Shown here one piece after another: positions 1,106 through 16,825 of a stretch of DNA of 64,000 bases. Source of the DNA: an uncultured Nitrospiraceae bacterium (lineage in GTDB: Bacteria > Nitrospirota > Thermodesulfovibrionia > Thermodesulfovibrionales > SM23-35); assembly GCA_963727775.1 (NCBI GenBank), contig CAVSHB010000001.1, forward strand, positions 352,001 through 416,000. The letters run 5' to 3'. The notes under the pieces were generated by a model, which was not told the origin of the DNA, did not search any database, and was given only the letters and a program-made list of their open reading frames with translations. The stretch's first letter is position 1. Every line of letters begins with the position of its first letter. A program made the position numbers and the translations under genes.

Positions 1106-1861
1106 TTATTTCACTATGCGTTTTCTCATAAGTCTGAAAGGATAGGGGGCAAGCAGGGCGGCGACGACTAATACCCAAACTATATCCCATCCCGGCGCCG
1201 AAACTTTCCCGGACGCGAACCCTCTGCAAATGTTTACGAGGTGGTAGAGCGGTGTAAAAAAAGCTATCTTTACAACTACAGCCGGCAGATTGTCGAGCGG
1301 GAAGAAGATACCTGAAAAAAGGAACAGCGGGGTCATAAACAGCGTATAGAAATAATTAAAGGAATCTATACCGGGCACTATTGCGGTGAATATGACCGAT
1401 ATCTCGGCAAAGATAAGCCCGCTTATGAAAAGAATCGGGATGGCCAGGATTATCAATGGGGAATCAGCAAGTCCGAACACGGATATGACAATAATAATTA
1501 TCGTGCCGTAAAGTAGGCTCTTTGTTGCTCCCCATATGAGTTCGCCTGCCACAAGATCTCCGATATTGACAGGCGTTGCGAGTATCGCATCGAATGTCTT
1601 TTGATAAGTCATCCTTACATAGGTGCCATACGTGCATTCATAGATCACGGCAAACATTGAAGAAGACGCGATGATTCCCGGAGCTATGAATTTAACATAG
1701 GGCACGCCGTTTATTTCCTTTACAAATGCGCCGAGACCAAGCCCCATGGCTGCAAGGTACAGGACCGGTTCGACGAAATTTAGGGCGATACTTGACTTAT
1801 ACAGCTTTGTATAAACCGTTAGATGCCTCTGCCAGACCCTGAATGCACGCTTAATGTTCAT
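1106..1861 (-). CDS. ABC-2 type transporter permease (NodJ-like)
   Basis: Six-TM pattern, 'YVKFIAPGI', 'PLFLFSGIFFPL', 'TPLYH'; directly downstream of an ABC ATPase. Confidence 0.88.
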   Translation of the reverse strand: MNIKRAFRVWQRHLTVYTKLYKSSIALNFVEPVLYLAAMGLGLGAFVKEINGVPYVKFIAPGIIASSSMFAVIYECTYGTYVRMTYQKTFDAILATPVNIGDLVAGELIWGATKSLLYGTIIIIVISVFGLADSPLIILAIPILFISGLIFAEISVIFTAIVPGIDSFNYFYTLFMTPLFLFSGIFFPLDNLPAVVVKIAFFTPLYHLVNICRGFASGKVSAPGWDIVWVLVVAALLAPYPFRLMRKRIVK

Positions 1862-1871
1862 AAGTATTCCC

Positions 1872-2603
1872 TCAGTCCTTAAGCGCCTTGCCTGTTAATT
1901 TTAGATACACCTCTTCCAAATCCCCTCCGTGAAGACCCATGAGGTTCGATGGAGTATCTATAGTTATTATCTTTCCTGAATCCATGATCGCCACCCTGTC
2001 GCAGAGGATTTCGGCTTCCTCCATATAATGAGTGGTGAGGACCAGTGTTGTATTTTTTGCTTTGAGACGGTCCAGCTTGTCCCATACGGAACGCCTGCTG
2101 TGCGGGTCGAGTCCGGTGGTCGGCTCATCAAGTATCATGAGCTCGGGATTATTGATCAATGACCGCGCCAGTATCAGCCTCCTCTTCATTCCTCCCGAGA
2201 GGCTGCCGATCTTCACATTTGCTTTTTCCTTCATTTCAACAAAATCGAGAAGTTCCCACGCCAAAGGCGAGGAAACCTTTTTCGGGATATCGAAGTACCG
2301 CGCATATACAATGAGGTTTTCAAGGACATTTAGATCCGGATCGAGATTGTCGTCCTGCGGCATGACGCCTATCCTTGCTTTAATCCGGCCCGGGTCTTCA
2401 ACGACGTTTATCCCGAATACCCTCAGGTCCCCGGATGTCGGAGGCATAAAGCAATATATGGTGCGCATTACCGTAGTCTTTCCGGCACCATTCGGTCCCA
2501 GAAACCCAAAACATTCTCCACTGAAAATTTCGAAATCCACTGCATTCACAGCTCTGAAGGAATCATAATCTTTGGTCAGTGCCTTTGCGCTTACTATGGT
2601 CAT
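1872..2603 (-). CDS. ABC transporter ATP-binding protein (NodI-like)
   Basis: Walker A GPNGAGKTT, signature LSGGMKRR, Walker B ILDEPTTGLD; start placed at MTIVSAK (2603), just after a -35/-10 promoter. Confidence 0.9.
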   Translation of the reverse strand: MTIVSAKALTKDYDSFRAVNAVDFEIFSGECFGFLGPNGAGKTTVMRTIYCFMPPTSGDLRVFGINVVEDPGRIKARIGVMPQDDNLDPDLNVLENLIVYARYFDIPKKVSSPLAWELLDFVEMKEKANVKIGSLSGGMKRRLILARSLINNPELMILDEPTTGLDPHSRRSVWDKLDRLKAKNTTLVLTTHYMEEAEILCDRVAIMDSGKIITIDTPSNLMGLHGGDLEEVYLKLTGKALKD

Positions 2604-2702: not shown

Positions 2703-2797
2703 ATGCTGAAGGAAGGTTGTTGTGTGCCGGTAATTCATGCCGTTCCCAGATGGCGGAAGAGTTTGCTCTGGAAATCGGCAAGGCTGCTTGCTCAGCT
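2703..2797 (+). pseudogene. arsC: Remnant of arsenate reductase ArsC (LMW-PTP family), N-terminus only
   Basis: Frame from 2717 reads LLCAGNSCRSQMAEEFALEIGK, the CX5R P-loop 'CxGNSCRSQMAE'; it is out of frame with ATG 2703 and similarity is lost after about 30 codons. Confidence 0.75.
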
Positions 2798-2993
2798 AAA
2801 CTTTTCTTAATACTTTTGACAAGAATATAGGGCAATTGTCGTAGTTGTCTGTTCCGCAGCAATTGTCCCTTTTCTGGTTATCGATTGCCATTGATGAGAA
2901 TGAGGCCATACATACATTAATGCCGTTGTATGGACATACCGTCTCGTGGCTACCGTATCTTGCTTGCTCTTGATGACCTGTGTAGATATTCAT
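2796..2993 (-). CDS. Small Cys-rich hypothetical protein (65 aa)
   Basis: Strong RBS AAAGGAGG before ATG 2993; CPY..C....CC......CPIF; has its own Pho-box-like promoter. Confidence 0.7.
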   Translation of the reverse strand: MNIYTGHQEQARYGSHETVCPYNGINVCMASFSSMAIDNQKRDNCCGTDNYDNCPIFLSKVLRKV

Positions 2994-3012
2994 ATCCACC
3001 TCCTTTGTTAAG

Positions 3013-3056
3013 ACTTTATCAAAAGGATATTACATGATTATGAAAGAAAGGTTAAA
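3013..3056 (-). promoter_or_regulatory. Pho-box-like array 1 plus -10
   Basis: Minus strand TTTAAC-N5-TTTCAT-N5-TGTAAT-N10-TAAAGT (11-bp period). Confidence 0.75.
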
Positions 3057-3098
3057 TTTTGAATTGAAAAGAAGAAGATTACCAGCATGTTTGACAAG

Positions 3099-4331
3099 TT
3101 ATTGAGGCATGTAGTAAGCAAGTCTGGCTTTTATGCTGTTTGCGAATCTATATCTCCATGATAATATGCCGGTCTCAGGACATGGCGACAGCATTGAATC
3201 CTTGCCGATTATGTATCTGTTTCCTCTCCATACAACCGTGGTAGACAATATAGGCGCAAACCAGATCAGACCGATAATGATGTCTTTGACCGGTGATAAG
3301 AAATACAGCAGGAAGCTCATTTTTGTTTTTATCTTTTTGCCGATATAGAAATCGCCCAATATTTTTATCGAGCTTACACCTGCCGCAAAAACCAATGTTA
3401 TCCTGGATGGCTCCCATAGAAATATCGGGAGAACAGACATAAACACGGCATTACTGAACAGTTCGGAAAAATACCTGATGCCGCCGATTTTCCATCTTAG
3501 CTTTCCCCATCTCGTATGCCTGTTGATGAATTTCCTTATGCCCCAATATTCGTTCACATTCTTGATAATATGATTGGACAAAATAACCTTCTTCCCCATT
3601 TTATGCATCTTTTGCCCGATCAGGTAATCTTCGGCAAGTACGTCTTTTACCGCTTTAAATCCGCCGATGGCTTCAAAGTCCTGTTTTTTCATAAGCATGG
3701 ATTTTCCAACAACACAGGGCATTTTAAGGAGTTTGTCCAGAAGGCAGACGCCGCCCAGAACAAAAGAATTCAGGTGCAGGTTCTCAAAGATCGAGCCAAA
3801 AGTGCGGCCTCCCGTCCCTTTTATCATATTGCTTACCAATCCTACTTCAGGATCTCGCATAGTGCTAACGATCTCCCGCAGGTAATTCTTATCAACAATG
3901 ACATTGCTGTCACTTATAAGAATATGCTCAAACCTCGCAATTTTGTATGCGGGGATAAGATTGTTGACTTTCGGATTAAGGCCGGCGTTGCATCGTTCCA
4001 CTATGATGGTAATATCCTTATCAGGATATTTGTCTTTTATCTTCCTTGCCACCTTATACGCGGGGTCATTTTGGTCCCGGAGTGAAAATATGACCTCATA
4101 TTCAGGATAATCCTGCATACAGATACTTGCAAGGTTATCGAATAGATTATCATCAAGTCCTTTGAGAGGTTTAAGGATAGAAACACCGGTCGGAGGCAAA
4201 GGTACATCTGTGCTTTCCTCTCCTCTGTTTTTACATTTTCCCTGCAGTGTTGCCCGGACCGCCCATATCTGAAGTCCATACCCGATAAGTCCCAGTGCGG
4301 CTACGCCCGCAAAAATCAAAAATATCTCCAT
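3099..4331 (-). CDS. GT21/GT2 glycosyltransferase, ceramide glucosyltransferase / HpnI-like
   Basis: N-terminal TM, 'VSILKPLKGLD', 'NPKVNNL', 'ISDSN', 'LAEDY', 'RHTRW' (QxxRW equivalent), 'VVWRGNRY'. Confidence 0.85.
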   Translation of the reverse strand: MEIFLIFAGVAALGLIGYGLQIWAVRATLQGKCKNRGEESTDVPLPPTGVSILKPLKGLDDNLFDNLASICMQDYPEYEVIFSLRDQNDPAYKVARKIKDKYPDKDITIIVERCNAGLNPKVNNLIPAYKIARFEHILISDSNVIVDKNYLREIVSTMRDPEVGLVSNMIKGTGGRTFGSIFENLHLNSFVLGGVCLLDKLLKMPCVVGKSMLMKKQDFEAIGGFKAVKDVLAEDYLIGQKMHKMGKKVILSNHIIKNVNEYWGIRKFINRHTRWGKLRWKIGGIRYFSELFSNAVFMSVLPIFLWEPSRITLVFAAGVSSIKILGDFYIGKKIKTKMSFLLYFLSPVKDIIIGLIWFAPILSTTVVWRGNRYIIGKDSMLSPCPETGILSWRYRFANSIKARLAYYMPQ

Positions 4332-4344
4332 CTGTTCTCCTTTC

Positions 4345-5037
4345 TTAATTTCTAAATAAAGTTATCGCGACGCCCTTGTTATGCCTGATACACTGTTTTA
4401 TTGAACCAATATCTTTTTCGCAATTCAGCAGGGTCTTCCATGAATAAACATGCCGCGGCCTGTGGAAATCACTGTTTGCGATATAGGGATACTTCTTCAG
4501 GCTTATCACATTGAACACATCATCTCTATTGGCAATCTCCCAGGCATCGATGTATTTGGCATACTTTTCCCTGTTATTCCACAGGAAGAGCGTGTCACGT
4601 ACGGCCATTTCCGAACTGTAGTGCGGATGACAGGCGATGATCAGTGCATCCTGCTGTTTAGCTTCAAGGAATATCTTTTCATAATCCCAGCAAGCAGGTA
4701 TAAACTTCCTTATGTTGAGTATGAGGATATGAGCGGACTTATCAGAAGTGAGGTGGTTTTTGGTAATCTCAACTCCCGGGATTACGAGCATTTGATATTT
4801 GTCCCACGCCCTTTCGGCTTCCCGCCCGACATGAGACATGTAGTCGTTGAAATTGTCCTCCGTGACCGAGAATCTGAAACGGTTTGCGAGTTTTCCGAAT
4901 GAATTGTCTCCGCTCACTACGTGGTCGGTTATGGCGATAACATCAAAACCGGCCTGTCCGAAGAGGTCAACTGCCCTTCTCAACTCTACCGAGCCGTCAG
5001 AGTACTTCGTGTGAATATGAAAATCACACAGTAACAT
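4345..5037 (-). CDS. PHP-domain metal-dependent phosphoesterase
   Basis: 'DFHIHTKYSDG', 'AITDH', 'PGVEI', 'CHPH', 'ANSDFH' PHP metal ligands. Confidence 0.88.
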   Translation of the reverse strand: MLLCDFHIHTKYSDGSVELRRAVDLFGQAGFDVIAITDHVVSGDNSFGKLANRFRFSVTEDNFNDYMSHVGREAERAWDKYQMLVIPGVEITKNHLTSDKSAHILILNIRKFIPACWDYEKIFLEAKQQDALIIACHPHYSSEMAVRDTLFLWNNREKYAKYIDAWEIANRDDVFNVISLKKYPYIANSDFHRPRHVYSWKTLLNCEKDIGSIKQCIRHNKGVAITLFRN

Positions 5038-5044
5038 TAATAAG

Positions 5045-5099
5045 ATTATAAATTTTATTAATTACAGGATTATGAAAAGAAGGTTAATATTCTGTTAAA
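5045..5099 (-). promoter_or_regulatory. Pho-box-like array 2 plus -10 (PHP-GT21 operon; probably leaderless)
   Basis: TTTAAC-N5-ATTAAC-N5-TTTCAT-N5-TGTAAT-N10-TATAAT-N7-ATG. Confidence 0.8.
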
Positions 5100-5116
5100 A
5101 ACTGATAATTTCAGAC

Positions 5117-5521
5117 TTATGAAAGGCTTAAATAAAAAGCTACCTTTTCCGTCAGATCAAAAACATTGCCATTTTCCGTCAGATCAAAAACATTGCCCTT
5201 GCATATATATCCATGCACTCCGGACTCAACCACAGCCGTTCTCAGGCTGTCTTCATCGTTGGAGGAATGAAAAACAACAGGTATATGTTTTGTGCCGCCG
5301 TTTGTCAGGATCATACCGGACAGTTTGATGCCTGAGAGGCAAGGCATATTAATATCCAGAAGGACAAGATCCGGCTGAATTGTTTTTACGAGATTTGTTG
5401 TGCCGACCCACATATGGTGTGTAAACACCTCATATCCTTCATTCTCCAATATTTCTTTTACAGTGACGAGAAGGTTTGTGTCATCGTCGACGACAAGTAT
5501 CTTTTTCTTAGTTTTCTCCAT
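5117..5521 (-). CDS. Single-domain response regulator (receiver)
   Basis: 'ILVVDDD', 'PDLVLLDINMP', 'GYICK'; overlaps the stop of the upstream kinase. Confidence 0.88.
   Translation of the reverse strand: MEKTKKKILVVDDDTNLLVTVKEILENEGYEVFTHHMWVGTTNLVKTIQPDLVLLDINMPCLSGIKLSGMILTNGGTKHIPVVFHSSNDEDSLRTAVVESGVHGYICKGNVFDLTENGNVFDLTEKVAFYLSLS
5145..5197. repeat. 27-bp in-frame tandem duplication in the receiver gene
   Basis: ttttccgtcagatcaaaaacattgcc at 5145-5170 and 5172-5197; encodes GNVFDLTEN-GNVFDLTEK. Confidence 0.9.
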
Positions 5522-6707
5522 ATGTTTCCTCCATGCTCGCCGCCGGTTTTAAAGGCAATGAGACTTCAAACGTTGTACCTTTACCGAATATGCTCGATAC
5601 ACTGATGCTGCCCCCCAGGATGTCCGTAAGGTTTTTGCAGATTGAAAGGCCGAGCCCCGTCCCTTCGTGTCTTTTGGTCATCGTATCTTCCAGCTGGCTG
5701 AAAGCAGTGAAGAGTTTTTCGAGGTCCTCTTCTCTTATCCCGGGGCCGGTATCACTGACGGATATCCTCAATTTGTCTGCGCCGTTAAAGAGGTACAAAA
5801 TAATCACACCGTTGTCGGTAAATTTCGCGGCATTACTCGTAAGATTGATCAATATCTGGCGGACCTTAATCGGATCGGACAGGAAAAACAGAGGGCCGTC
5901 ATGAGCAACTACTTGAACACTGACAGGCTTGTTACCCAAAAGAACACGGGTATTTTCAGCAACTTCACGGAGCAGCGCTCCCATATCGAAATATTCATTA
6001 AGAACTTCCATCTTGCCCGCCTCGATTTTCGATAGGTCGAGGATGTTTGTCACGATGGTCCTGAGATTGGTTGCACTTGACATCATAAGTGCAAGGCGGT
6101 CTTTCATCTGCCCTATGGCCCCTTTCTCATGAGACACTTTCAAGAGTTCGGTCAGCATAATAATCGCATTTACCGGAGACCGGAGTTCATGGGTAACGTG
6201 AGCGATAAACTGGGATTTCATCTCGCTCATCTTTTCGAGTTCCTTTGCCTTTGCGTGGACCAGTTCTTTTTGCATAATGCTGTTGGCCAGCACGTTGCTC
6301 TGTTGGACTACCATCTGCTTTACCGACAAAAGTCCTTTGTAGCGACCATCATCATCTACCACGATGATATCATCGTAAATGTCATGCGACGGTCTCTCCA
6401 GCGCCCTGTCCATGGCAATATCAAGTCTTTCCCGTTCGTTAAATACAAGCGGAGACGTGTCTGCGATTGCACTGATCGGCTTTTTCCCGTAGACTTCAAA
6501 TCCGTATCGTTTAAATACAGTCAAAAAGAGTTTCGGCCTCGTGATAAGTCCTTCGACATTCTTGTCTTTGACCAAAGCCAAGGCCTCGATATTTGAATCC
6601 TGGAAAAATCTGTCTGTAACATCTTTGACAGGCACATCCGGCGAAATATATTTGTTTGAAGTAATAAGCTTGCCGACTACCGATGATTCTGAATCAGATA
6701 CTGACAT
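5508..6707 (-). CDS. Cytoplasmic histidine kinase with N-terminal CBS-pair
   Basis: CBS-like 'DIIVVDDDGRYKGLLSVK'; H-box 'THELRSP', N-box 'QILINLTSNAAKFT', G1 'DTGPGI', G2 'GTGLGL'; RBS GGAGG; no TM. Confidence 0.85.
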   Translation of the reverse strand: MSVSDSESSVVGKLITSNKYISPDVPVKDVTDRFFQDSNIEALALVKDKNVEGLITRPKLFLTVFKRYGFEVYGKKPISAIADTSPLVFNERERLDIAMDRALERPSHDIYDDIIVVDDDGRYKGLLSVKQMVVQQSNVLANSIMQKELVHAKAKELEKMSEMKSQFIAHVTHELRSPVNAIIMLTELLKVSHEKGAIGQMKDRLALMMSSATNLRTIVTNILDLSKIEAGKMEVLNEYFDMGALLREVAENTRVLLGNKPVSVQVVAHDGPLFFLSDPIKVRQILINLTSNAAKFTDNGVIILYLFNGADKLRISVSDTGPGIREEDLEKLFTAFSQLEDTMTKRHEGTGLGLSICKNLTDILGGSISVSSIFGKGTTFEVSLPLKPAASMEETYGEN

Positions 6708-6763
6708 GTATTATCCTCCTCGGCGACGAAATTATCTTAATTACCTCGGCAGTGTTGAACAAT

Positions 6764-6819
6764 ACTATAAAGTTTTTTTAATTACAGGATTATTAAGGTA
6801 AGATTAAATGTCTGTTAAA
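6764..6819 (-). promoter_or_regulatory. Pho-box-like array 3 plus -10 (CBS-kinase/receiver operon)
   Basis: TTTAAC-N5-TTTAAT-N5-CTTAAT-N5-TGTAAT-N11-TATAGT; the distal repeat overlaps the GH1 stop codon. Confidence 0.75.
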
Positions 6820-8059
6820 ATGAAGACCTGCTTTTTATAAGATATGAATAATATGTTGCGGCATCGGTCGGCTTGCGTTCGAGTGTCTCAAAATCCACCT
6901 TATAAAGTCCGAAGCGGGCGTCGAGACCCTGAAGCCATTCATAATTGTCGATCAGCGACCAGTAGAAATAGCCTTTCACATCTATCCCGTTTCGTATGCA
7001 TTTTTCAACAACATCGATATGCGCTTTCATAAATTTTATCTTCTTCCTGTCATTGCGGGTTGCGATCCCGTTTTCGGTGATGATTAACGGGACATTGAGC
7101 TTTGACGCATATCTCAGCACTTTTTCAAGACCGCGGGGGTGTATTTCCCAACCCATATCAGTCAGTCCATATCCGTCGATGTCCCGGTGTCTCAGTTCGA
7201 TCCCCATTTTTTTGAAAGGGTTGAACCTTATATGGACCCTCGTGTAATAGTTGACGCCGAAGAAATCCAGCTTGCCCTTTATCGGAGCGGCAATTTCTAT
7301 GGCCTTACTGAATGGAAATTTTACACGCAAAGAGCCTGTGATAAACGCGTCAAGGAGCGAGTGATTGTAAAAGTATTTTGCGATCTTCGAAAGCAGTCTG
7401 TCGAGCGGGTTCCATCTATGCCATGGCGCCAGAGCAGCCATATTATGCGCCACGCTTACCAGTGCATCCGGTATGTTAGAATGGATAAAGTCATATGCTT
7501 TCCCGTGACATACGAGAATATTTTCCAAGGCCTTTATTGCAAATGCAGCATCTCTAATGCCCGGCGGCATGCATCCTTCAAGATATCCGCCTAATATAAG
7601 CACATACGGCTCATTAAAAGTTATCCAGTAACGGACTCCTTTTATTGTGGAGACGATCTTTTCAGTATATGCCAAAAACTTTTCGATAGATGCGTCTTCA
7701 TGCCAGGGATATTTTTTGATGAACCATAGCGGATGTGTGAAGTGATGCAGCGTAATCATGGGTTCTATATTATTTTCGGTCAGTATGTCCACTATTTCCT
7801 GATAATGCGCTATCGCTACGGTATCCCAAAGATTTTCCTTCGGTTGTATACGACTCCATTCAATCGAAAACCGGTACGCGTTTACTCCGAGATCTTTCAG
7901 GAGATTCAGGTCTTTTTTGTAGAGATAATAATGGTTTGTTACATCAGGGTTTGCATCCAGTATAGAGTCCCAGGACGTCCAGTCCGCATAGGGAGAGCCT
8001 TCGAGCTGGAAGGCGGACGTTGCAACACCCCAGAGGAAAGGATCTTTTCTTGTCGACAT
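6815..8059 (-). CDS. Glycoside hydrolase family 1 (beta-glucosidase-like)
   Basis: 'FLWGVATSAFQLEG', 'YRFSIEWSRI', acid/base 'TFNEP', nucleophile 'ITENG', 'WSLIDNYEW'. Confidence 0.93.
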   Translation of the reverse strand: MSTRKDPFLWGVATSAFQLEGSPYADWTSWDSILDANPDVTNHYYLYKKDLNLLKDLGVNAYRFSIEWSRIQPKENLWDTVAIAHYQEIVDILTENNIEPMITLHHFTHPLWFIKKYPWHEDASIEKFLAYTEKIVSTIKGVRYWITFNEPYVLILGGYLEGCMPPGIRDAAFAIKALENILVCHGKAYDFIHSNIPDALVSVAHNMAALAPWHRWNPLDRLLSKIAKYFYNHSLLDAFITGSLRVKFPFSKAIEIAAPIKGKLDFFGVNYYTRVHIRFNPFKKMGIELRHRDIDGYGLTDMGWEIHPRGLEKVLRYASKLNVPLIITENGIATRNDRKKIKFMKAHIDVVEKCIRNGIDVKGYFYWSLIDNYEWLQGLDARFGLYKVDFETLERKPTDAATYYSYLIKSRSSF

Positions 8060-8086
8060 TAATTTGTTTAACCGTGCCTTTCTAAT

Positions 8087-8118
8087 AAAAAAAGCCCTCC
8101 CGGGAAGGGGGGGAGGGC
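8087..8118 (-). terminator. Intrinsic terminator after the porin gene
   Basis: GCCCTCCC-loop-GGGAGGGC stem followed by T7 on the minus strand. Confidence 0.75.
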
Positions 8119-8148
8119 GAAGGGAAAGCAGTGCTTTTTATCTGGTAA

Positions 8149-9429
8149 TTAAAAAGCAACTTGCAAGGTGAGCTGGATTCTTTTGTCGTCCGACATGCCG
8201 GACTGCTTGTAATTCACGGTATCATAGTCAAGTAGCACCATATTCTTGTGCGGTTTATCTATGTAATATGCGACGCCGCTTATAAACCTTGCGTTCCAGT
8301 CATTTTTGATATTTGTGTTAGGGTCGAAATGGTCATATCTTCCGATCAAGCTGAATCTGTTAACGGGGTCTTTAAACATATCGTAGAGTTTCAATTCGGT
8401 AAAGAAAGAATAGCCTTTTTTCTCATTTGCATCGGCGCCGTCTTGGCGGCCTTTGCCCCAAAGATATTGACCTGTCAGGACAAAGTACTCATGCTCAAAA
8501 CTCGCGAATGCTAAATTTGTTTTCCAATCCGGCTCTGCGCTCGTATTACCTTTTCCGGTAATCCCGAAGTAGGTGAATTGAAGTCCCGGAATAATGTCGG
8601 GCAAAGGCCTCACAGTCACCCTTCCTTCGAAAACTTTGTTTTTGTTGTTCTCAGTCGCAGTATAGCCTCCGCCGTTGTACACGCCCGCCTCAATACTCCC
8701 ATAACGGCCGGGATGAGCGGAGTTTACATTCTTCTGATAGTCTTCGTCTACATATCCTCCCAAGAGGGTTTCAAAAGTCAGACCGTAGTCGGCTGAAACC
8801 AAGATGCCGTTTCTTTCGATGAACATGGTATCCTGCATGCGGTAGTAGTTTAGATTTTCTTCAAAGTCTTGCCACGGTACGGGCACTTCACCCCACTTTA
8901 GAGTAGGCTTGGTCAGAAATGCTATATCAGGGATATTAAATTGACCGTAAATGTACTTAAGCCTCAGAGTTAGAGAACCATTCATGTTGTTTGTTGAATC
9001 TTTCATGGTCGTCACATCCGAGGTTATCCGGGCCTGGAACCATGGCAAAAATTCCTTTTCCACGGTCAAATAACCGCGCTTTACAGCGAATGTGTTGAAT
9101 CTTGTATCTGCGTCGCCCGTGTGTCCTGTTTCTCCGTTCTGATAAGAAAGATACCAGAGACCTCCTATTTTGAACCCCTTGAGTGCCTTCGCAATCTTAC
9201 CGAGATCTTTCTTTTCCTCTGTTGATACTTCGGCAGCCTTCTGTTCGCCTGCCGGTTCCTTTTCCATCTCCTTCATGACCGACTTGGCCTCCTGTTCGGT
9301 CAGAATCCCTTTCTCAACAAGCTTCTTTAGGATCGGGTCCGTAATGTCCGCAGCCATCGCTGCCCCGGCCAATAGTAGCAGGCAGCATAGACTTAAAACT
9401 AAACATAAAACTGACACACCTCTCTTCAT
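8149..9429 (-). CDS. Outer-membrane porin, probably phosphate-selective (OprO/OprP-like)
   Basis: Signal peptide, 'DPILKKLVEKGILT' periplasmic N-terminus, amphipathic beta strands, C-terminal Phe ('LQVAF'); next to phoBR and carries a Pho-box-like promoter. Confidence 0.72.
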   Translation of the reverse strand: MKRGVSVLCLVLSLCCLLLLAGAAMAADITDPILKKLVEKGILTEQEAKSVMKEMEKEPAGEQKAAEVSTEEKKDLGKIAKALKGFKIGGLWYLSYQNGETGHTGDADTRFNTFAVKRGYLTVEKEFLPWFQARITSDVTTMKDSTNNMNGSLTLRLKYIYGQFNIPDIAFLTKPTLKWGEVPVPWQDFEENLNYYRMQDTMFIERNGILVSADYGLTFETLLGGYVDEDYQKNVNSAHPGRYGSIEAGVYNGGGYTATENNKNKVFEGRVTVRPLPDIIPGLQFTYFGITGKGNTSAEPDWKTNLAFASFEHEYFVLTGQYLWGKGRQDGADANEKKGYSFFTELKLYDMFKDPVNRFSLIGRYDHFDPNTNIKNDWNARFISGVAYYIDKPHKNMVLLDYDTVNYKQSGMSDDKRIQLTLQVAF

Positions 9430-9503
9430 TCTGCGTCCTCCTCTTAATAGATTTGATTGACATCTTCCACGAAGAATTACATTGCGTTATGCTATTGCAG
9501 ATT

Positions 9504-9558
9504 ACTTTACGGCGTGAATGTTACAGGAGTATTAAGGAAAGGTTAATTTTAGGTTACG
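9504..9558 (-). promoter_or_regulatory. Pho-box-like array 4 plus -10 (porin)
   Basis: CGTAAC-N5-ATTAAC-N5-CTTAAT-N5-TGTAAC-N10-TAAAGT. Confidence 0.78.
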
Positions 9559-9609
9559 CTGAAAAAAGCAGAATAATTATTAAGGTCTGTCATCAACTAC
9601 ATTCTTTAG

Positions 9610-11382
9610 TTAAACAACAGGGCATAGAATTTTGACTGTAGTTCCTGTTCCCTCGGTGCTTTCGATCTCCATTTCCCATCCCTGCGCCTTTACAAGATGT
9701 TTTACGATCGCAAGGCCGAGCCCTGTGCCTCCAAGCTCTCTTGAACGTGCTCTATCGACCCTGTAAAAGCGCTCCCCGAGACGTGAGAGATGTTTTCTGG
9801 GTATGCCCATGCCGGTATCTTCTATGGAGATCTCCACAGCGGGAGAGAGGGTCGATGAATCAATGTCTTTCTTTCCTTTTTGAACTTTTACCGTTACTCC
9901 TCCGGCTTCAGTAAATTTAATTCCGTTGTCTACAAGATTGAGGAGAATCTGAACGAGCCTGTCCCTGTCAGCCTCTAATTCTATAATGCCGGCAGGCAGC
10001 ATTTTCTTTAAAAAGAGCTTTTTTTTGTCGGCCTTATCTCTCAAGGTCGTGAAAACGCTGTCAATGATTTCATCGAGGTTCACGATTTTCTTTTCTATCT
10101 TTATATCTCCGAGTTCGATCCTTGAGAGAGCGAGGAGATCATTGACCAATGAATTCAGGCGTTCGCTGTTGTTCTTTATACTCTCAAGAAATTTAAGGGC
10201 ATTTTCCTTATCTTCTAAAGCCCCTTCAAGGAGGGTCTCTGCAAACCCTTTTATTGCTGTGATAGGCGTCCTGATCTCATGAGAAACATTGGCCACAAAA
10301 TCTTTCCTGACCTCTTCAAGTTTCCTGAGCCTTGTAATATCATGGAATGTCAGGACGATACCCGATATTTCACCTTGTAAAGCAAAGGGGGCCGCGGTGG
10401 TCAGCAGATAAAGCTCCCTGGGATAGGCGACCTCGATCTCACGGGATACCTTTTCCCCCCTTTCGGCAATGCTTTCGACTATGTCCATGAGTTCCGTTTT
10501 TCTTAAGGCCTCCAAGAGTGTTTTGCCCTCAATGCCTGAATAGTCAATCCCGAAGAGGTTGTTCAGAGCTGCGTTTCCCATAATTATCTTGCCTTTGGCA
10601 TCCGTCAGGACCAGCCCGTCCGACATATTCTTCAGTATCGCCTCCATCCGGGTTTTCTCTTCCTCGCTCTGCCGGAGCCTTAGGCCGAGATTCCGGGCCA
10701 TATCGTTTATGTTTTCCCCGAGTTCTCCCAGTTCATCTTTTCCTTTCAATAAAAGTCTTTTCCTGAAATTCCCGGCTGCCACCTCCCTGGAAAAGGCGGC
10801 AATCTCTTCAACGGATTTTGTTATCCTCCTCGTCTGTATCAAACCGAATACAACTACAACGAATGAGACCGCAAGTGACGCCACGATGATCTTCATCCTT
10901 ATGACATTCATTGCGCTATCAATATCATGGAGAGGAATGGAAAGTCTTAGAAAATATTTGTCCTGATTGTTATGGAATGTAATCGCAAGATAGAACAGGT
11001 TTCTCTGAATAGTTTTGCTGAAGCGAATGGAACTCCCGACATCGCCAATCTCGGCGTCTTTGATCTCCGGTCTGTTCAGGTGGTTCTCCATCTTCTCGGA
11101 AGGCTCGTCCGAGTCCCCCAGAACCAGGCCGGTATTGTCTATTATGGTGATCCTCGCCCCTGTTGTTTCTTTATACTTTTTGCAGAAACCATCGAGGTTT
11201 CCTTCGAAAGAAGACGGTATCTGCCCGGCTATTAAACGGGCCTGTATTAAAATACTTTTCCTAAGGTTCAGGATATAATTATTTTTAATGGAGCTCGATA
11301 GGTAGAATTCGAGTGAAATGAGAAGCAGCGCGGCTATGAGAAGATAGGCAATGAAGACCTTTCTGAACAGAACATGTTTCAT
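9610..11382 (-). CDS. phoR: Phosphate regulon sensor histidine kinase PhoR
   Basis: TM-periplasmic ('MENHLNRPEI')-TM-HAMP-PAS-HisKA 'KDFVANVSHEIRTP'-HATPase 'RFYRVDRARSRELGGTGLGLAIVKH'. Confidence 0.88.
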   Translation of the reverse strand: MKHVLFRKVFIAYLLIAALLLISLEFYLSSSIKNNYILNLRKSILIQARLIAGQIPSSFEGNLDGFCKKYKETTGARITIIDNTGLVLGDSDEPSEKMENHLNRPEIKDAEIGDVGSSIRFSKTIQRNLFYLAITFHNNQDKYFLRLSIPLHDIDSAMNVIRMKIIVASLAVSFVVVVFGLIQTRRITKSVEEIAAFSREVAAGNFRKRLLLKGKDELGELGENINDMARNLGLRLRQSEEEKTRMEAILKNMSDGLVLTDAKGKIIMGNAALNNLFGIDYSGIEGKTLLEALRKTELMDIVESIAERGEKVSREIEVAYPRELYLLTTAAPFALQGEISGIVLTFHDITRLRKLEEVRKDFVANVSHEIRTPITAIKGFAETLLEGALEDKENALKFLESIKNNSERLNSLVNDLLALSRIELGDIKIEKKIVNLDEIIDSVFTTLRDKADKKKLFLKKMLPAGIIELEADRDRLVQILLNLVDNGIKFTEAGGVTVKVQKGKKDIDSSTLSPAVEISIEDTGMGIPRKHLSRLGERFYRVDRARSRELGGTGLGLAIVKHLVKAQGWEMEIESTEGTGTTVKILCPVV

Positions 11383-11385
11383 TAT

Positions 11386-12084
11386 TTATTCATCGGTGAA
11401 TGAATAACCTATCCCCCGCATGGTCCTTATATATCTTGGATGCGCCGGGTCTTCCTCGATATTGGCCCGCAATCTCCTGATGTGCACATCCACTGTCCTC
11501 GGTTCAACATAGGCCTCATCCCTCCAGACAAAATCAAGAAGCTGGTTTCTGCTGAATACTTTCCCTCTTCTTTCAGCAAGGAAGAGCAACAGTTTAAACT
11601 CTGTCGCACTCAGCTTGATGTTCTTCCCTCCTATAGTAACGGTATACCGCTCCCTGTCTATTTCAAGCTCTCCTATTTTCAATATCTTTTCCGTTACAGG
11701 TTTTTCTCTTGTTCTTCTCAGAACGGCCTTGACCCTTGCAACAAGCTCTCTCGGGCTAAAAGGCTTGCCCATGTAATCGTCTGCTCCCATTTCGAGTCCG
11801 AGTACTTTGTCCACTTCTTCTCCCTTTGCGGTGAGCATAATAACAGGCAGTCCGGCAGTCTTAGGATCGTTCCTCAATATGCGGCAGAGATCAATCCCCT
11901 GGATCCCGGGCAGCATGAGGTCCAGCACAATTAGGTCGTATTTCCCTTTTCTTATCTTTGATAGGGCTGATTCTCCATCCGGGGATGAATCAACTGTGAA
12001 ACCTTCTTTTTTTAAATTATAGGAGACAAGCTCTACAAGATCGGCCTCATCGTCAACGATAAGGATATGTTTAGGTAAATCCAT
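11386..12084 (-). CDS. phoB: Phosphate regulon response regulator PhoB/PhoP (OmpR family)
   Basis: REC plus winged helix 'RTVDVHIRRLR', 'GLEMGADDY'; upstream of phoR; start at MDLPKH (12084). Confidence 0.88.
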   Translation of the reverse strand: MDLPKHILIVDDEADLVELVSYNLKKEGFTVDSSPDGESALSKIRKGKYDLIVLDLMLPGIQGIDLCRILRNDPKTAGLPVIMLTAKGEEVDKVLGLEMGADDYMGKPFSPRELVARVKAVLRRTREKPVTEKILKIGELEIDRERYTVTIGGKNIKLSATEFKLLLFLAERRGKVFSRNQLLDFVWRDEAYVEPRTVDVHIRRLRANIEEDPAHPRYIRTMRGIGYSFTDE

Positions 12085-15205: not shown

Positions 15206-16825
15206 CCCGAAAAATGCGTTTGCTATAGGCATACCTATAGAGTCAAGCCTATCAAGGCATTGGCTGATTTGTCGATATAAAAGCTAATACTGATGCTGTT
15301 TCTTGTTCCACCTCCTGAAAATTATGTTCTTTTTATCTAAATGCAGTGCAATTACCAAAACTGGGGGGAAAGTATTGTCCCACGCGGTTAAAGAGGTAGC
15401 GCAGTTTTGATCGTACTTTCTGCGTAAAGACAGAAATCCGCAATACAGGTTTCCTTCCATCCCATCCTAATTGGGCTGGAAGGACAAGATACTTGTACCG
15501 TAAGGTTTTCAAACGTTCTGTCTTTTCTTTTTGACCGAGTATCTGATGCCTGAACAGGACAAACAGATTGTAGATGAATACCCGAATAAGCATAGCCGCC
15601 TCCGTTGAGTAGAAATACTTCATCGAGAACCCGCCGAGTGCAAAATCCTCTTTCAGTTCCTTGATGGTATTCTCATCGTTCGCCCTATGCCTGCATTGCT
15701 TCCATACCTCATATGTAGAATCATGTGAATTGGTTATCCATACGCTATAACGATAATGCCCTGTATCAAACTCATCTCCGAAAAGAGACAACTCTTTTCC
15801 CATCGCGTGCGGTCTCTTCTTGACATCCTGGCGCACTGCAATAAACCTCCTGTCGATTATCCACTCTACATGCTGGAAGAAGAACTCAGTGATCCATATC
15901 CCTTCTTCTACCTGTGCCCAGTTTTGTTGTGCGTAGATTATCCTCTGCAGCGGACGATATAGGCGAGCAGCTATGATATATACTAATTCTCTCTTCTCAA
16001 GCAGTTCGATGAACTCCCTAAGATAAAATCCACTGTCTGCAATAATGCCCTTGATATCGATATGACCGTTGATCCTCTGCCATGTGGATTCAAAAAATCC
16101 AATAATGTTGTTCCATGACATCACGTTGCCGGGGCGGTTCCAAAGATTTATCACATACTTGTTTCTGTTAAGAAATGCCAGAAGCGGGCTGTGGCTACCA
16201 CGGCCCTTCTTCTTCGGGTTATATCCCCTCTTGACTCCCTCCTGTTTTCCGTATCGCTCAAGGACTGTAGAATCGAACGTCAACCAGTCCTCTTTGAGCT
16301 CTTTCCAGGGGATCAATCTCTTCAAGTATCCCCATAATCCCTCCGACATCTCTTCCACTTCCTTCAGTTTTCTGATCTTCCTGAAAAGCCTGCCCAATGT
16401 CGTCGAGGCGATAGGAAGCCTCTTCACTGCAAAAAGATCGGTGAAAATCTCCTGCCAACCAAGATAAAGTAGATGAGAAAACCTGCTGCCTCCCGCATAG
16501 ATCAGAAGGATGTATGCCAATACCTTGCTGTATATCCCCATTCCATTGGGTGAACTCTCATGGATCGGAATCACCTCTTGCAAAATTCCTCTCAATTTGA
16601 TCTTTTCAAAAAATGCAGCCAATAAACTGAATCCCCCATATGCCGTCATCTTCTTCTCCGTAAATCCAATCCTTACTTTATTTATTTCGATCTTTGTGCT
16701 ACATTTTGACTGCATATTTCTATTCTCCTTTCGTTTAGAGTTGATGGTCGGGTAAACCTATTGATTCTAATACGAAAGGAGAATTTCTTCGGGGATATTA
16801 TTTTAGGTCAACTGCACTTTTTGGG
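15206..16825 (-). mobile_element. Complete IS1380-family insertion sequence (1620 bp)
   Basis: Imperfect TIRs CCCGAAAAATGCGTTTG (15206-) and CCCAAAAAGTGCAGTTG (reverse complement, ending 16825), 13/17 identical; flanking TTAA direct repeat at 15202-15205 and 16826-16829. Confidence 0.85.
15333..16715 (-). CDS. IS1380-family DDE transposase
   Basis: 'TAYGG', 'TFDSTV', 'GYNPKKKG..SHSPLLAF', 'ADSGFY', 'RANDENTIKELK.DF'. Confidence 0.92.
   Translation of the reverse strand: MQSKCSTKIEINKVRIGFTEKKMTAYGGFSLLAAFFEKIKLRGILQEVIPIHESSPNGMGIYSKVLAYILLIYAGGSRFSHLLYLGWQEIFTDLFAVKRLPIASTTLGRLFRKIRKLKEVEEMSEGLWGYLKRLIPWKELKEDWLTFDSTVLERYGKQEGVKRGYNPKKKGRGSHSPLLAFLNRNKYVINLWNRPGNVMSWNNIIGFFESTWQRINGHIDIKGIIADSGFYLREFIELLEKRELVYIIAARLYRPLQRIIYAQQNWAQVEEGIWITEFFFQHVEWIIDRRFIAVRQDVKKRPHAMGKELSLFGDEFDTGHYRYSVWITNSHDSTYEVWKQCRHRANDENTIKELKEDFALGGFSMKYFYSTEAAMLIRVFIYNLFVLFRHQILGQKEKTERLKTLRYKYLVLPAQLGWDGRKPVLRISVFTQKVRSKLRYLFNRVGQYFPPSFGNCTAFR

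What the first reader, a model, noticed from the sequence alone, without database searches (positions are those of the whole stretch)
2796..12084. Candidate PhoBR-controlled phosphate-starvation lipid-remodelling island (PHP esterase + GT21 glycosyltransferase + GH1 + porin + CBS kinase)
Seen: nine co-oriented genes from phoB to a small Cys-rich ORF, with four promoters sharing one repeat array; the PHP and GT21 genes are only 13 nt apart under one of them. Established: phosphate-starved bacteria replace phospholipids with P-free glycolipids by pairing a phosphoesterase (PlcP, calcineurin-like fold) with glycosyltransferases (e.g. Agt/Pgt, and the Caulobacter glycosphingolipid transferases); GT21 enzymes glucosylate ceramide, and HpnI is hopanoid-associated. 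Inference: a PHP-fold esterase replaces PlcP to free phosphate, GT21 makes a glucosylated lipid (ceramide, hopanoid or DAG), GH1 reverses the step, and the porin imports phosphate. I do not know of this combination being described.
Basis: partly seen in the sequence, partly recalled or inferred. Interest (0 to 1): 0.85.

Follow-up and report, generated by a model that had tools for sequence, protein, structure and literature searches.

The report
Phosphate-starvation glycolipid module with PHP esterase
In this Nitrospirota genome a gene island behind predicted phosphate-starvation (PhoB) boxes likely swaps membrane phospholipids for sugar lipids, and an uncharacterised PHP-fold phosphoesterase likely does the job that the unrelated enzyme PlcP does in other bacteria.

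Summary
Observation confirmed: nine minus-strand genes, four 11-bp-phased arrays, PHP 13 nt before GT21. The arrays are very probably Pho boxes: the best other genome match precedes pstSCAB-phoU, and a matrix learned from other genomes' pstS promoters ranks three of the four in the top 6 of 3668 upstream regions (79).

The conserved unit is PHP-GT21 plus GH1. In 221 Nitrospirota genomes PHP occurs in 69, GT21 in 68, both in 67, all three in 59 (77). Porin, CBS kinase and phoBR are variable neighbours.

PHP likely replaces PlcP. No PHP genome had a strong PlcP-type hit, while 17 others did (94). There the PlcP-type gene follows a GT28 MGDG synthase (3 loci; 108, 110), and the same GT28 family is fused to this PHP in 13 of 150 representatives (33, 115).

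A hopanoid acceptor is unlikely (shc in 16 of 67). Diacylglycerol is favoured; ceramide is a serious rival (59 of 67 carry a bCerS-like gene). No activity was tested.

This is a new variant of known Pho lipid remodelling. The scan already reported this module in five other genomes (69).

The parts
11386..12084 (-). PhoB-like OmpR-family regulator (232 aa from ATG 12084)
   Evidence: Best NCBIfam model TIGR02154 PhoB, 282 bits vs cut-off 296; no other ORF in the genome above 43% identity
9610..11382 (-). PhoR-like sensor kinase (sCache-HAMP-PAS-HisKA-HATPase)
   Evidence: Pfam; NF046044 PnpS 406.6 above cut-off 400, phoR_proteo 286 below 334
9521..9563 (-). Predicted Pho-box array for the porin
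   Evidence: ranks 4th of 3668 genome upstream regions with the independent pstS matrix
8149..9429 (-). Outer-membrane barrel resembling phosphate-selective porins (accessory)
   Evidence: No Pfam or NCBIfam hit; Atlas neighbours include PF07396 Porin_O_P clusters at 0.97; 10 of 80 loci
8087..8118 (-). Terminator-like hairpin with U7 tail between porin and GH1
   Evidence: z -1.2, so weak statistically
6815..8059 (-). GH1 beta-glycosidase of the BGPh type; NEP149 and ITENG327 motifs present; no hydrophobic signal segment (core partner)
   Evidence: Best PDB hit 1VFF, E 1.6e-88; motifs and hydropathy; in 60 of 69 PHP genomes
6782..6824 (-). Predicted Pho-box array for CBS kinase + receiver
   Evidence: 3rd of 3668
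5508..6707 (-). Soluble CBS-HisKA-HATPase kinase (accessory)
   Evidence: Pfam; no TM segment; 12 of 80 loci
5117..5521 (-). Single-domain receiver with an in-frame 27-bp tandem duplication (5145-5198) (accessory)
5062..5104 (-). Predicted Pho-box array for PHP-GT21, followed by TATAAT 9-14 nt before the PHP ATG
   Evidence: 140th of 3668 here, and above the 99th percentile in 38 of 76 relatives
4345..5037 (-). PHP metallo-phosphoesterase of the TM0559 family, all nine canonical ligands present (H7 H9 D14 H39 E90 H103 H137 D190 H192) (core)
   Evidence: PF02811; 2ANU E 2.8e-64; ligands
3099..4331 (-). GT21 membrane glycosyltransferase; DS141, LAED232-235 and R271xxRW motifs present; not HpnI (core)
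   Evidence: PF13506; TIGR03472 247.6 below cut-off 310; PDB hit human glucosylceramide synthase E 2e-39; motifs
3030..3072 (-). Predicted Pho-box array for the small ORF
   Evidence: upstream region 6th of 3668
2796..2999 (-). 67-aa four-cysteine protein of an unnamed family, frequent in these islands; possible metal binder, role unknown
   Evidence: 34 of 80 loci; C22, C30, C48 invariant and C56 near-invariant in 42 sequences; no convincing Pfam or PDB match; 82% paralog behind its own array on C4

Best explanation
When phosphate runs short, PhoB likely binds the four arrays and switches on a PHP-GT21 pair in which the PHP enzyme likely strips phosphate from a membrane lipid and the GT21 likely adds a beta-linked hexose to the freed diacylglycerol, giving a phosphorus-free glycolipid. 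Shown: the genes, the arrays, their match to pstS promoters, and the near-obligate PHP-GT21-GH1 partnership. Inferred: the PHP substrate. It could be a phospholipase C-type cut of PG/PE, as PlcP makes, or dephosphorylation of phosphatidate; I rate these about equal, slightly favouring the former. Also inferred: DAG (or its ether analogue) as main acceptor, with ceramide possibly accepted too, as for Pgt. The BGPh-like GH1 is predicted to act on the lipid glycoside at the membrane, most simply hydrolysing it to recycle the acceptor. The porin, CBS kinase-receiver and small Cys protein are separately switched accessory members of the same regulon.
For: Pho control: the best non-training match of the array precedes pstSCAB-phoU. 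The independent pstS matrix (consensus TGTAACA-N4) ranks own pstS 1st and the window arrays 3rd, 4th, 6th and 140th of 3668. The half-site fits the D. vulgaris PhoB repeat (c/t)GT(n)AC and the period fits the E. coli 7+4 box (PMC3333781 passages). Partnership: GT21 near PHP in 78 of 80 loci; 67 of the 70 genomes with either gene have both. Lipid context: OlsF-like gene in 16 and flippase-like gene in 15 of 80 loci, plus pstS, psiE, alkaline phosphatase, PhoH. PHP swap: GT28 MGDG-synthase region fused to PHP in 13 of 150 representatives, 11 with all nine ligands, including Verrucomicrobiota records. GT2 lies beside PHP in 13 of 80 distant loci. Strong PlcP-type hits occur in 17 of 221 genomes, none PHP-positive; none among 11 further PHP genomes. 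A PlcP-type gene follows an MGDG-synthase gene in family f23. DAG: Pgt is a GT21 with a Pho box that favours DAG over ceramide. G063 (one contig, 98% complete) keeps PHP-GT21-GH1-OlsF with no bCerS-like hit and only a 46% Spt-family hit. In f18 the bCerS-like gene is no commoner in PHP genomes (30 of 37) than overall (38 of 48). GH1: nearest structure is the membrane-bound alkyl-glucosidase BGPh.
Against: No activity, expression or lipid data exist for these genes. Characterised PHP enzymes that I recall act on soluble phosphomonoesters, cyclic phosphates or RNA, not lipids. About 25 of 80 distant PHP loci have no lipid gene beside them (my list), and in 9 the PHP sits next to a calcineurin-like phosphoesterase rather than in place of one. 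PlcP/PHP exclusivity follows family lines, so it is not many independent events, and the PlcP label of the probe rests on a recalled motif. bCerS-like genes are in 59 of 67 PHP+GT21 genomes, and in 8 of 9 such genomes of a second phylum against 65 of 251 background. The GT21 is only about 26-27% identical to HpnI and to a rhizobial GT21, and about 32% to human glucosylceramide synthase over 257 columns (my count). GH1 has no array here and in only 3 of 56 relatives, and lies behind a terminator-like hairpin.
Confidence: 0.55

Rival explanations
1. Same Pho-controlled remodelling, but the product is glucosylceramide: GT21 is a true ceramide glucosyltransferase, PHP frees ceramide from a phosphosphingolipid, and GH1 is a glucosylceramidase.
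For: The genome has a reductase-Spt-GNAT operon of the cerR-spt-bCerS type on C4:170902-174157. bCerS-like gene in 59 of 67 PHP+GT21 genomes. Every family with PHP-GT21 also has it, and f17, f19-f23 have neither. 8 of 9 vs 65 of 251 in a second phylum. Best PDB hit is human glucosylceramide synthase. PMC10667739 passages say Thermodesulfovibrio has sphingolipid potential and that monoglycosyl ceramides correlate with Thermodesulfovibriona ASVs.
Against: G063, G046 and G061 keep the pair without a bCerS-like hit. There is no enrichment within f18. No spt or bCerS-like cluster was among the frequent neighbours in the 80 loci. PHP's fused partner elsewhere is a GT28 DAG glycosyltransferase. The Spt scores 580.6, under the 640 cut-off, and the bCerS label is inferred from operon layout only.
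Confidence: 0.25
2. GT21 makes the phosphorus-free glycolipid, but PHP is a soluble phosphatase that recovers phosphate from released head groups or other cytoplasmic phosphoesters, so it complements rather than replaces a phospholipase.
For: PHP has no TM segment. In 9 distant loci it lies directly upstream of a calcineurin-like phosphoesterase, 7 of them with acyltransferase genes, often between pst and phoBR. Others stand beside pst genes or are fused to receiver-kinase domains. PMC3972451 notes that the head-group phosphatases are unknown.
Against: No PlcP-type gene was found in PHP-GT21 genomes to make the acceptor. PHP is fused or coupled to three different GT families. GT-linked members carry a more basic amphipathic segment after H39 (median moment 0.61-0.69, net charge +0.5 to +3) than unlinked ones (0.55, -1.5); this is weak evidence.
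Confidence: 0.13
3. GT21 is an HpnI-type hopanoid glycosyltransferase.
For: Best NCBIfam hit is HpnI; this genome has shc; G063, G046 and G061, which lack the bCerS-like gene, do have shc.
Against: Below the HpnI cut-off. A separate HpnI above cut-off lies beside hpnJ near the hpn cluster, only 27% identical. 51 of 67 PHP+GT21 genomes had no shc hit.
Confidence: 0.03
4. The module works on non-lipid glycans (for example a surface polysaccharide or periplasmic glucan), with GH1 trimming it.
For: Weak GT2 and polysaccharide-synthase model hits; GH1 enzymes are mostly active on soluble glycosides.
Against: GT21 is by far the best Pfam model; neighbours are lipid and Pho genes, not glycan export genes; GH1 is closest to BGPh.
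Confidence: 0.04

Closest known systems
PlcP + glycosyltransferase lipid remodelling (plcP-agt; plcP next to the GT21 Pgt) of Alphaproteobacteria, SAR11 and others (PMC4796936, PMC3972451, PMC8231724; passages read)
   Same: Pho-box control; a metallo-phosphoesterase gene directly upstream of a lipid glycosyltransferase; OlsF/OlsB-type genes in the same regulon; GT21 family as in Pgt
   Different: The esterase is a PHP-fold TM0559-family protein, not calcineurin-like; the GT21 is a separate clade (about 26% to a rhizobial GT21 whose identity with Pgt I did not establish); a BGPh-like GH1 is a near-constant third partner; hosts are Nitrospirota
Desulfovibrio alaskensis G20 phosphate-limitation lipids (Agt homolog Dde_3613, OlsF homolog Dde_3661; PMC5193443 passages)
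   Same: Sulfate reducer replacing phospholipids by glycolipids and ornithine lipids
   Different: Uses a GT4 Agt; the words PHP, phospholipase and phosphoesterase do not occur in that main text
Thermotoga maritima TM0559 (PDB 2ANU, named 'hypothetical protein')
   Same: Full-length match, E 2.8e-64, same metal ligands
   Different: Different segment after the H39 ligand; its gene context was not examined and I read no paper on its activity
Pyrococcus horikoshii BGPh (PDB 1VFF), membrane-bound long-alkyl beta-glycosidase (PMC4687101 passages)
   Same: Best structural relative of the GH1, 301 bits vs 252 or less for most other GH1s
   Different: Archaeal; no known link to phosphate starvation; the hydrophobic mound was not modelled here
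HpnI (TIGR03472)
   Same: GT21 family
   Different: Below cut-off, outside the hpn cluster, mostly in genomes without shc

Membership tests
Pho regulon member | 11-bp-phased direct repeats upstream of the gene, shared with the pstS promoter | tested here: met
   (met for porin, CBS kinase, PHP-GT21, small ORF; not for GH1 or phoBR)
Pho regulon member | PhoB binding and induction at low phosphate | not testable with these tools
   no RNA holder listed
PlcP-glycosyltransferase remodelling operon | Calcineurin-like PlcP phosphoesterase | tested here: not met
   The esterase is PHP fold; no LpxH/PlcP-type hit in this genome
PlcP-glycosyltransferase remodelling operon | Phosphoesterase coupled to a lipid glycosyltransferase under a Pho box | tested here: met
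PlcP-glycosyltransferase remodelling operon | Phospholipid hydrolysis to DAG and glycolipid formation | not testable with these tools
   needs enzyme assays and lipidomics
PHP phosphoesterase, TM0559 type | PF02811 and nine metal ligands (HxH, D, H, E, H, H, DxH; list recalled) | tested here: met
GT21 | PF13506 above cut-off; D, D, ED and RxxRW motifs; N-terminal anchor | tested here: met
   158 bits vs 21.7
HpnI | TIGR03472 cut-off; hpn cluster; shc in genome | tested here: not met
Pgt orthologue | Close similarity to Agrobacterium/Mesorhizobium Pgt | tested here: inconclusive
   Pgt itself was not available; an unannotated S. fredii GT21 is 26% identical
Glucosylceramide synthase | Ceramide pathway in host and ceramide as acceptor | tested here: inconclusive
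   Pathway-like operon in 59 of 67, not found in one near-complete single-contig genome; acceptor not testable
GH1, BGPh-like | NEP and TENG catalytic motifs; nearest solved relative 1VFF | tested here: met
Phosphate-selective porin O/P | PF07396 match | tested here: inconclusive
   No HMM hit; Atlas feature neighbours with PF07396 at 0.97

The most novel reading that the evidence does not exclude
The TM0559-type PHP family is a second, structurally unrelated class of cytoplasmic phospholipase C. It is interchangeable with PlcP and is used with GT21 in Nitrospirota and a second phylum, fused to GT28 in Verrucomicrobiota, and paired with GT2 elsewhere. With the BGPh-like GH1 it forms a reversible phospholipid-glycolipid switch that helps explain the glycolipids of phosphate-poor anoxic habitats, and it is invisible to plcP-based surveys.
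Probability: 0.33. Interest if true: 0.75.

Novelty: new variant of a known kind. Interest (0 to 1): 0.55.

Why it matters
Lipid remodelling in the environment is surveyed with plcP as marker (PMC4796936). If a PHP enzyme does the same job in anaerobic Nitrospirota and in Verrucomicrobiota, that marker misses whole lineages, and a structural-genomics 'hypothetical' (2ANU family) gains a testable function. It also offers candidate genes for the monoglycosyl diether and ceramide lipids that PMC10667739 links to Thermodesulfovibrionia in phosphate-poor serpentinite fluids. Relatives in records named Thermodesulfovibrio carry PHP-GT21 with GH1 nearby (L043, L045, L048, L050), so the test is feasible. 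The strategy itself, and GT21 as a Pho-controlled lipid glycosyltransferase, are known.

Tried and rejected
1. First independent motif test scanned one strand. It learned the reversed motif from divergent promoters and did not rank the window arrays highly (best rank fraction 0.17). The two-strand version did; its 21 training regions include five promoters counted twice and four with no real site.
2. Hopanoid acceptor: rejected.
3. Nine-gene island as a conserved unit: rejected; many loci are contig-truncated, so neighbour counts are lower bounds, and the phoB count (30 of 80) may include other OmpR regulators.
4. PHP::GT21 fusions P0052 and P0150 are single-member clusters with truncated domains; not counted as evidence.
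5. Flanking ABC-2 transporter and DedA genes: no array, not conserved near PHP; excluded.
6. AlphaFold of PHP without alignment (pLDDT 35) and of the small protein (pLDDT 58): unusable, so no fold search was run.
7. No RNA holder listed.
8. PHP not found in plasmids; the viral scan matched 3 stretches but returned 0 loci.
9. GH1 as an SFR2-type lipid transglycosylase (recalled idea): paper search empty, no sequence available; left open.
10. Literature: ten full-text searches listed no paper describing a PHP-GT21(-GH1) module. Subscription papers are largely missing; Stankeviciute 2022 and Devers 2011 were not held, and their supplements could bear on the bCerS and Pgt labels. The TM0559 search was seen as a listing only. 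PMC11181052, PMC10132767 and PMC11334938 were searched by terms only.
Full report
Setting. The window is C1:352001-416000 of a 3.43-Mb, 96.8% complete genome. The closest PHP relatives are in records named Thermodesulfovibrionales.

Observation. All nine genes, the 13-nt PHP-GT21 gap and the four-copy array are real. Each array has three or four half-sites 11 bp apart. Held-out copies are matched or exceeded by only 4-6 of 6.86 million genome positions.

The arrays are probably Pho boxes. A matrix from the four copies finds, as best new site, the promoter of pstSCAB-phoU. The next three sites lie in a sister island on C4 with a receiver, an EAL-CBS-GGDEF gene and small Cys proteins. A matrix learned only from 21 pstS upstream regions of other genomes (TGTAACA-N4) ranks own pstS 1st and the CBS kinase, porin, small ORF and PHP regions 3rd, 4th, 6th and 140th of 3668. 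A first one-strand version failed on the window sites. In relatives the site is strong before PHP in 38 of 76 loci, psiE 8 of 12 and porin 6 of 9, but before GT21 in 1 of 79, GH1 3 of 56 and control genes 0 of 13. The half-site agrees with the D. vulgaris PhoB repeat and the period with the E. coli box (PMC3333781 passages). Binding was not tested.

What is conserved. In the best 80 of 160 PHP loci, GT21 was present in 78, GH1 56, the small protein 34, phoB-like 30, phoR 18, CBS kinase 12 and porin 10. Other frequent neighbours were OlsF-like (16), flippase-like (15), a YfcE-type phosphoesterase (15), pstS (17 and 7), psiE (12), alkaline phosphatase (5) and PhoH (5). In 221 whole Nitrospirota genomes PHP was found in 69, GT21 in 68 and GH1 in 65; 67 had PHP and GT21, 59 all three, and 74 any of them. 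Losses within genera are shared (for example 8 of 10 in g9 for all three genes). The unit is therefore PHP-GT21 with GH1. The rest are mobile members of a Pho island. The pair also occurs in the phylum of G221 (PHP in 11 of 251, nine at 69% or more).

PHP. It is a full-length relative of TM0559 (2ANU) with all nine ligands. The deep search gave 947 representatives at E<=0.001. Of the 150 listed, 13 carry an N-terminal GT28-like region, five of them with an MGDG-synthase Pfam hit near or above cut-off and best NCBIfam match diglucosyl-DAG synthase for P0010. Named cluster members are Verrucomicrobiota. In 80 more distant metagenome loci, 13 have a GT2 directly upstream, 9 a calcineurin-like phosphoesterase downstream (7 with acyltransferase and GNAT genes), 12 are PHP-GT21, and about 25 have no lipid neighbour. 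So the link to lipid glycosyltransferases recurs, but does not cover the whole family.

PlcP. This genome gave no LpxH-model hit and none of the seven Metallophos ORFs read looked like PlcP except one distant 390-aa protein. A PlcP-type probe (label from a recalled motif) hit 17 of 221 genomes strongly, all PHP-negative; only one PHP genome had a weak 28% hit. In the three f23 loci read, the PlcP-type gene follows a GT28-like gene, confirmed by Pfam for L208. With the published plcP-next-to-Pgt arrangement (PMC4796936 passages), all four combinations of two esterases and two glycosyltransferase families exist. That is the pattern expected of non-homologous replacement. It is inference, and lineage-confounded.

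Acceptor. Hopanoid is unlikely: shc was found in 16 of 67 genomes, and the true HpnI is elsewhere. Ceramide is possible: the genome has a cerR-spt-bCerS-like operon, present in 59 of 67 and enriched in the second phylum (8 of 9 vs 65 of 251). But G063, a single-contig genome, keeps the module intact without it, and f18 shows no enrichment. DAG is available to all, is the substrate of PHP's fused GT28 partner family, and is preferred by the GT21 Pgt, which also accepts ceramide (PMC3972451). Environmental lipid data link Thermodesulfovibrionia to both glycosyl diethers and glycosyl ceramides (PMC10667739).

GH1. Its best structure is BGPh, a membrane-bound long-alkyl glucosidase. It has intact catalytic motifs and no signal segment. 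Only 5 of its 65 genomes lack PHP. It lacks its own array and follows a terminator-like hairpin here, which would suit a turnover enzyme not co-induced with synthesis. Hydrolysis versus transglycosylation is open.

Accessories. The porin resembles Porin_O_P clusters by language-model features only. The CBS kinase and receiver alternate with EAL-CBS-GGDEF genes in relatives, in line with c-di-GMP genes in the D. vulgaris Pho regulon. The small four-Cys protein has no convincing family match.

Novelty. Ten full-text searches listed no description of the module (see Tried and rejected). Five earlier notes of this scan describe it in other genomes; I saw them after forming my reading, and they agree but are not independent. 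The whole-genome profiles, the PlcP exclusivity with GT28-PlcP in the same phylum, and the ceramide/hopanoid counts were computed here.

Verdict. Pho-controlled phosphorus-free glycolipid module about 0.85; PHP supplying the lipid acceptor about 0.65; full best explanation with DAG 0.55. New variant of a known kind; interest 0.55.

Noticed in passing
L084 (G000:C4:235600-239100): A second array-marked island in the same genome: TusA-like ORF, receiver paralog (56%), EAL-CBS-GGDEF gene, an 82% paralog of the small Cys ORF and a second small Cys ORF, with three arrays.
   Followed up: partly
L081:1902-5157 (G000:C4:170902-174157): Reductase, Spt-like and GNAT operon of the cerR-spt-bCerS type; the GNAT gene was found in 93 of 186 Nitrospirota genomes, almost all in this order, f16 and f18.
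   Followed up: partly
L082, L083 (G000:C1:46000-75000): Hopanoid cluster (hpnN, hpnK-like, shc, hpnA, hpnH, hpnJ, hpnI), rare in this order (4 of 40 searched).
   Followed up: partly
L208:335-2448 (also L209, L210): GT28 MGDG-synthase gene overlapping a PlcP-type gene; the PlcP-type gene was found in 13 of 13 genomes of family f23.
   Followed up: partly
L141, L129, L138, L142: PHP + 372-aa calcineurin-like phosphoesterase + acyltransferase + FeeM/GNAT between pst-phoU and phoB: a candidate phosphorus-free aminolipid module.
   Followed up: no
L186:14809-16938, L189:4724-6679; P0055: PHP domain of the same family fused to receiver and histidine-kinase domains, beside phoBR.
   Followed up: no
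window 5145-5198: 27-bp tandem duplication adds nine residues to the end of the receiver protein; absent from the relatives viewed.
   Followed up: partly
window 5038-5052: TATAAT ends 9 nt before the PHP ATG and no ribosome-binding site is visible, suggesting a nearly leaderless transcript.
   Followed up: no
window 1106-2600 and 487-1056: ABC-2 exporter pair with a near-consensus promoter (2638-2610) and a DedA/VTT gene next to the island; not conserved with it.
   Followed up: partly
window 15333-16715: 460-aa ORF that reads like a transposase (from sequence only, not scanned).
   Followed up: no
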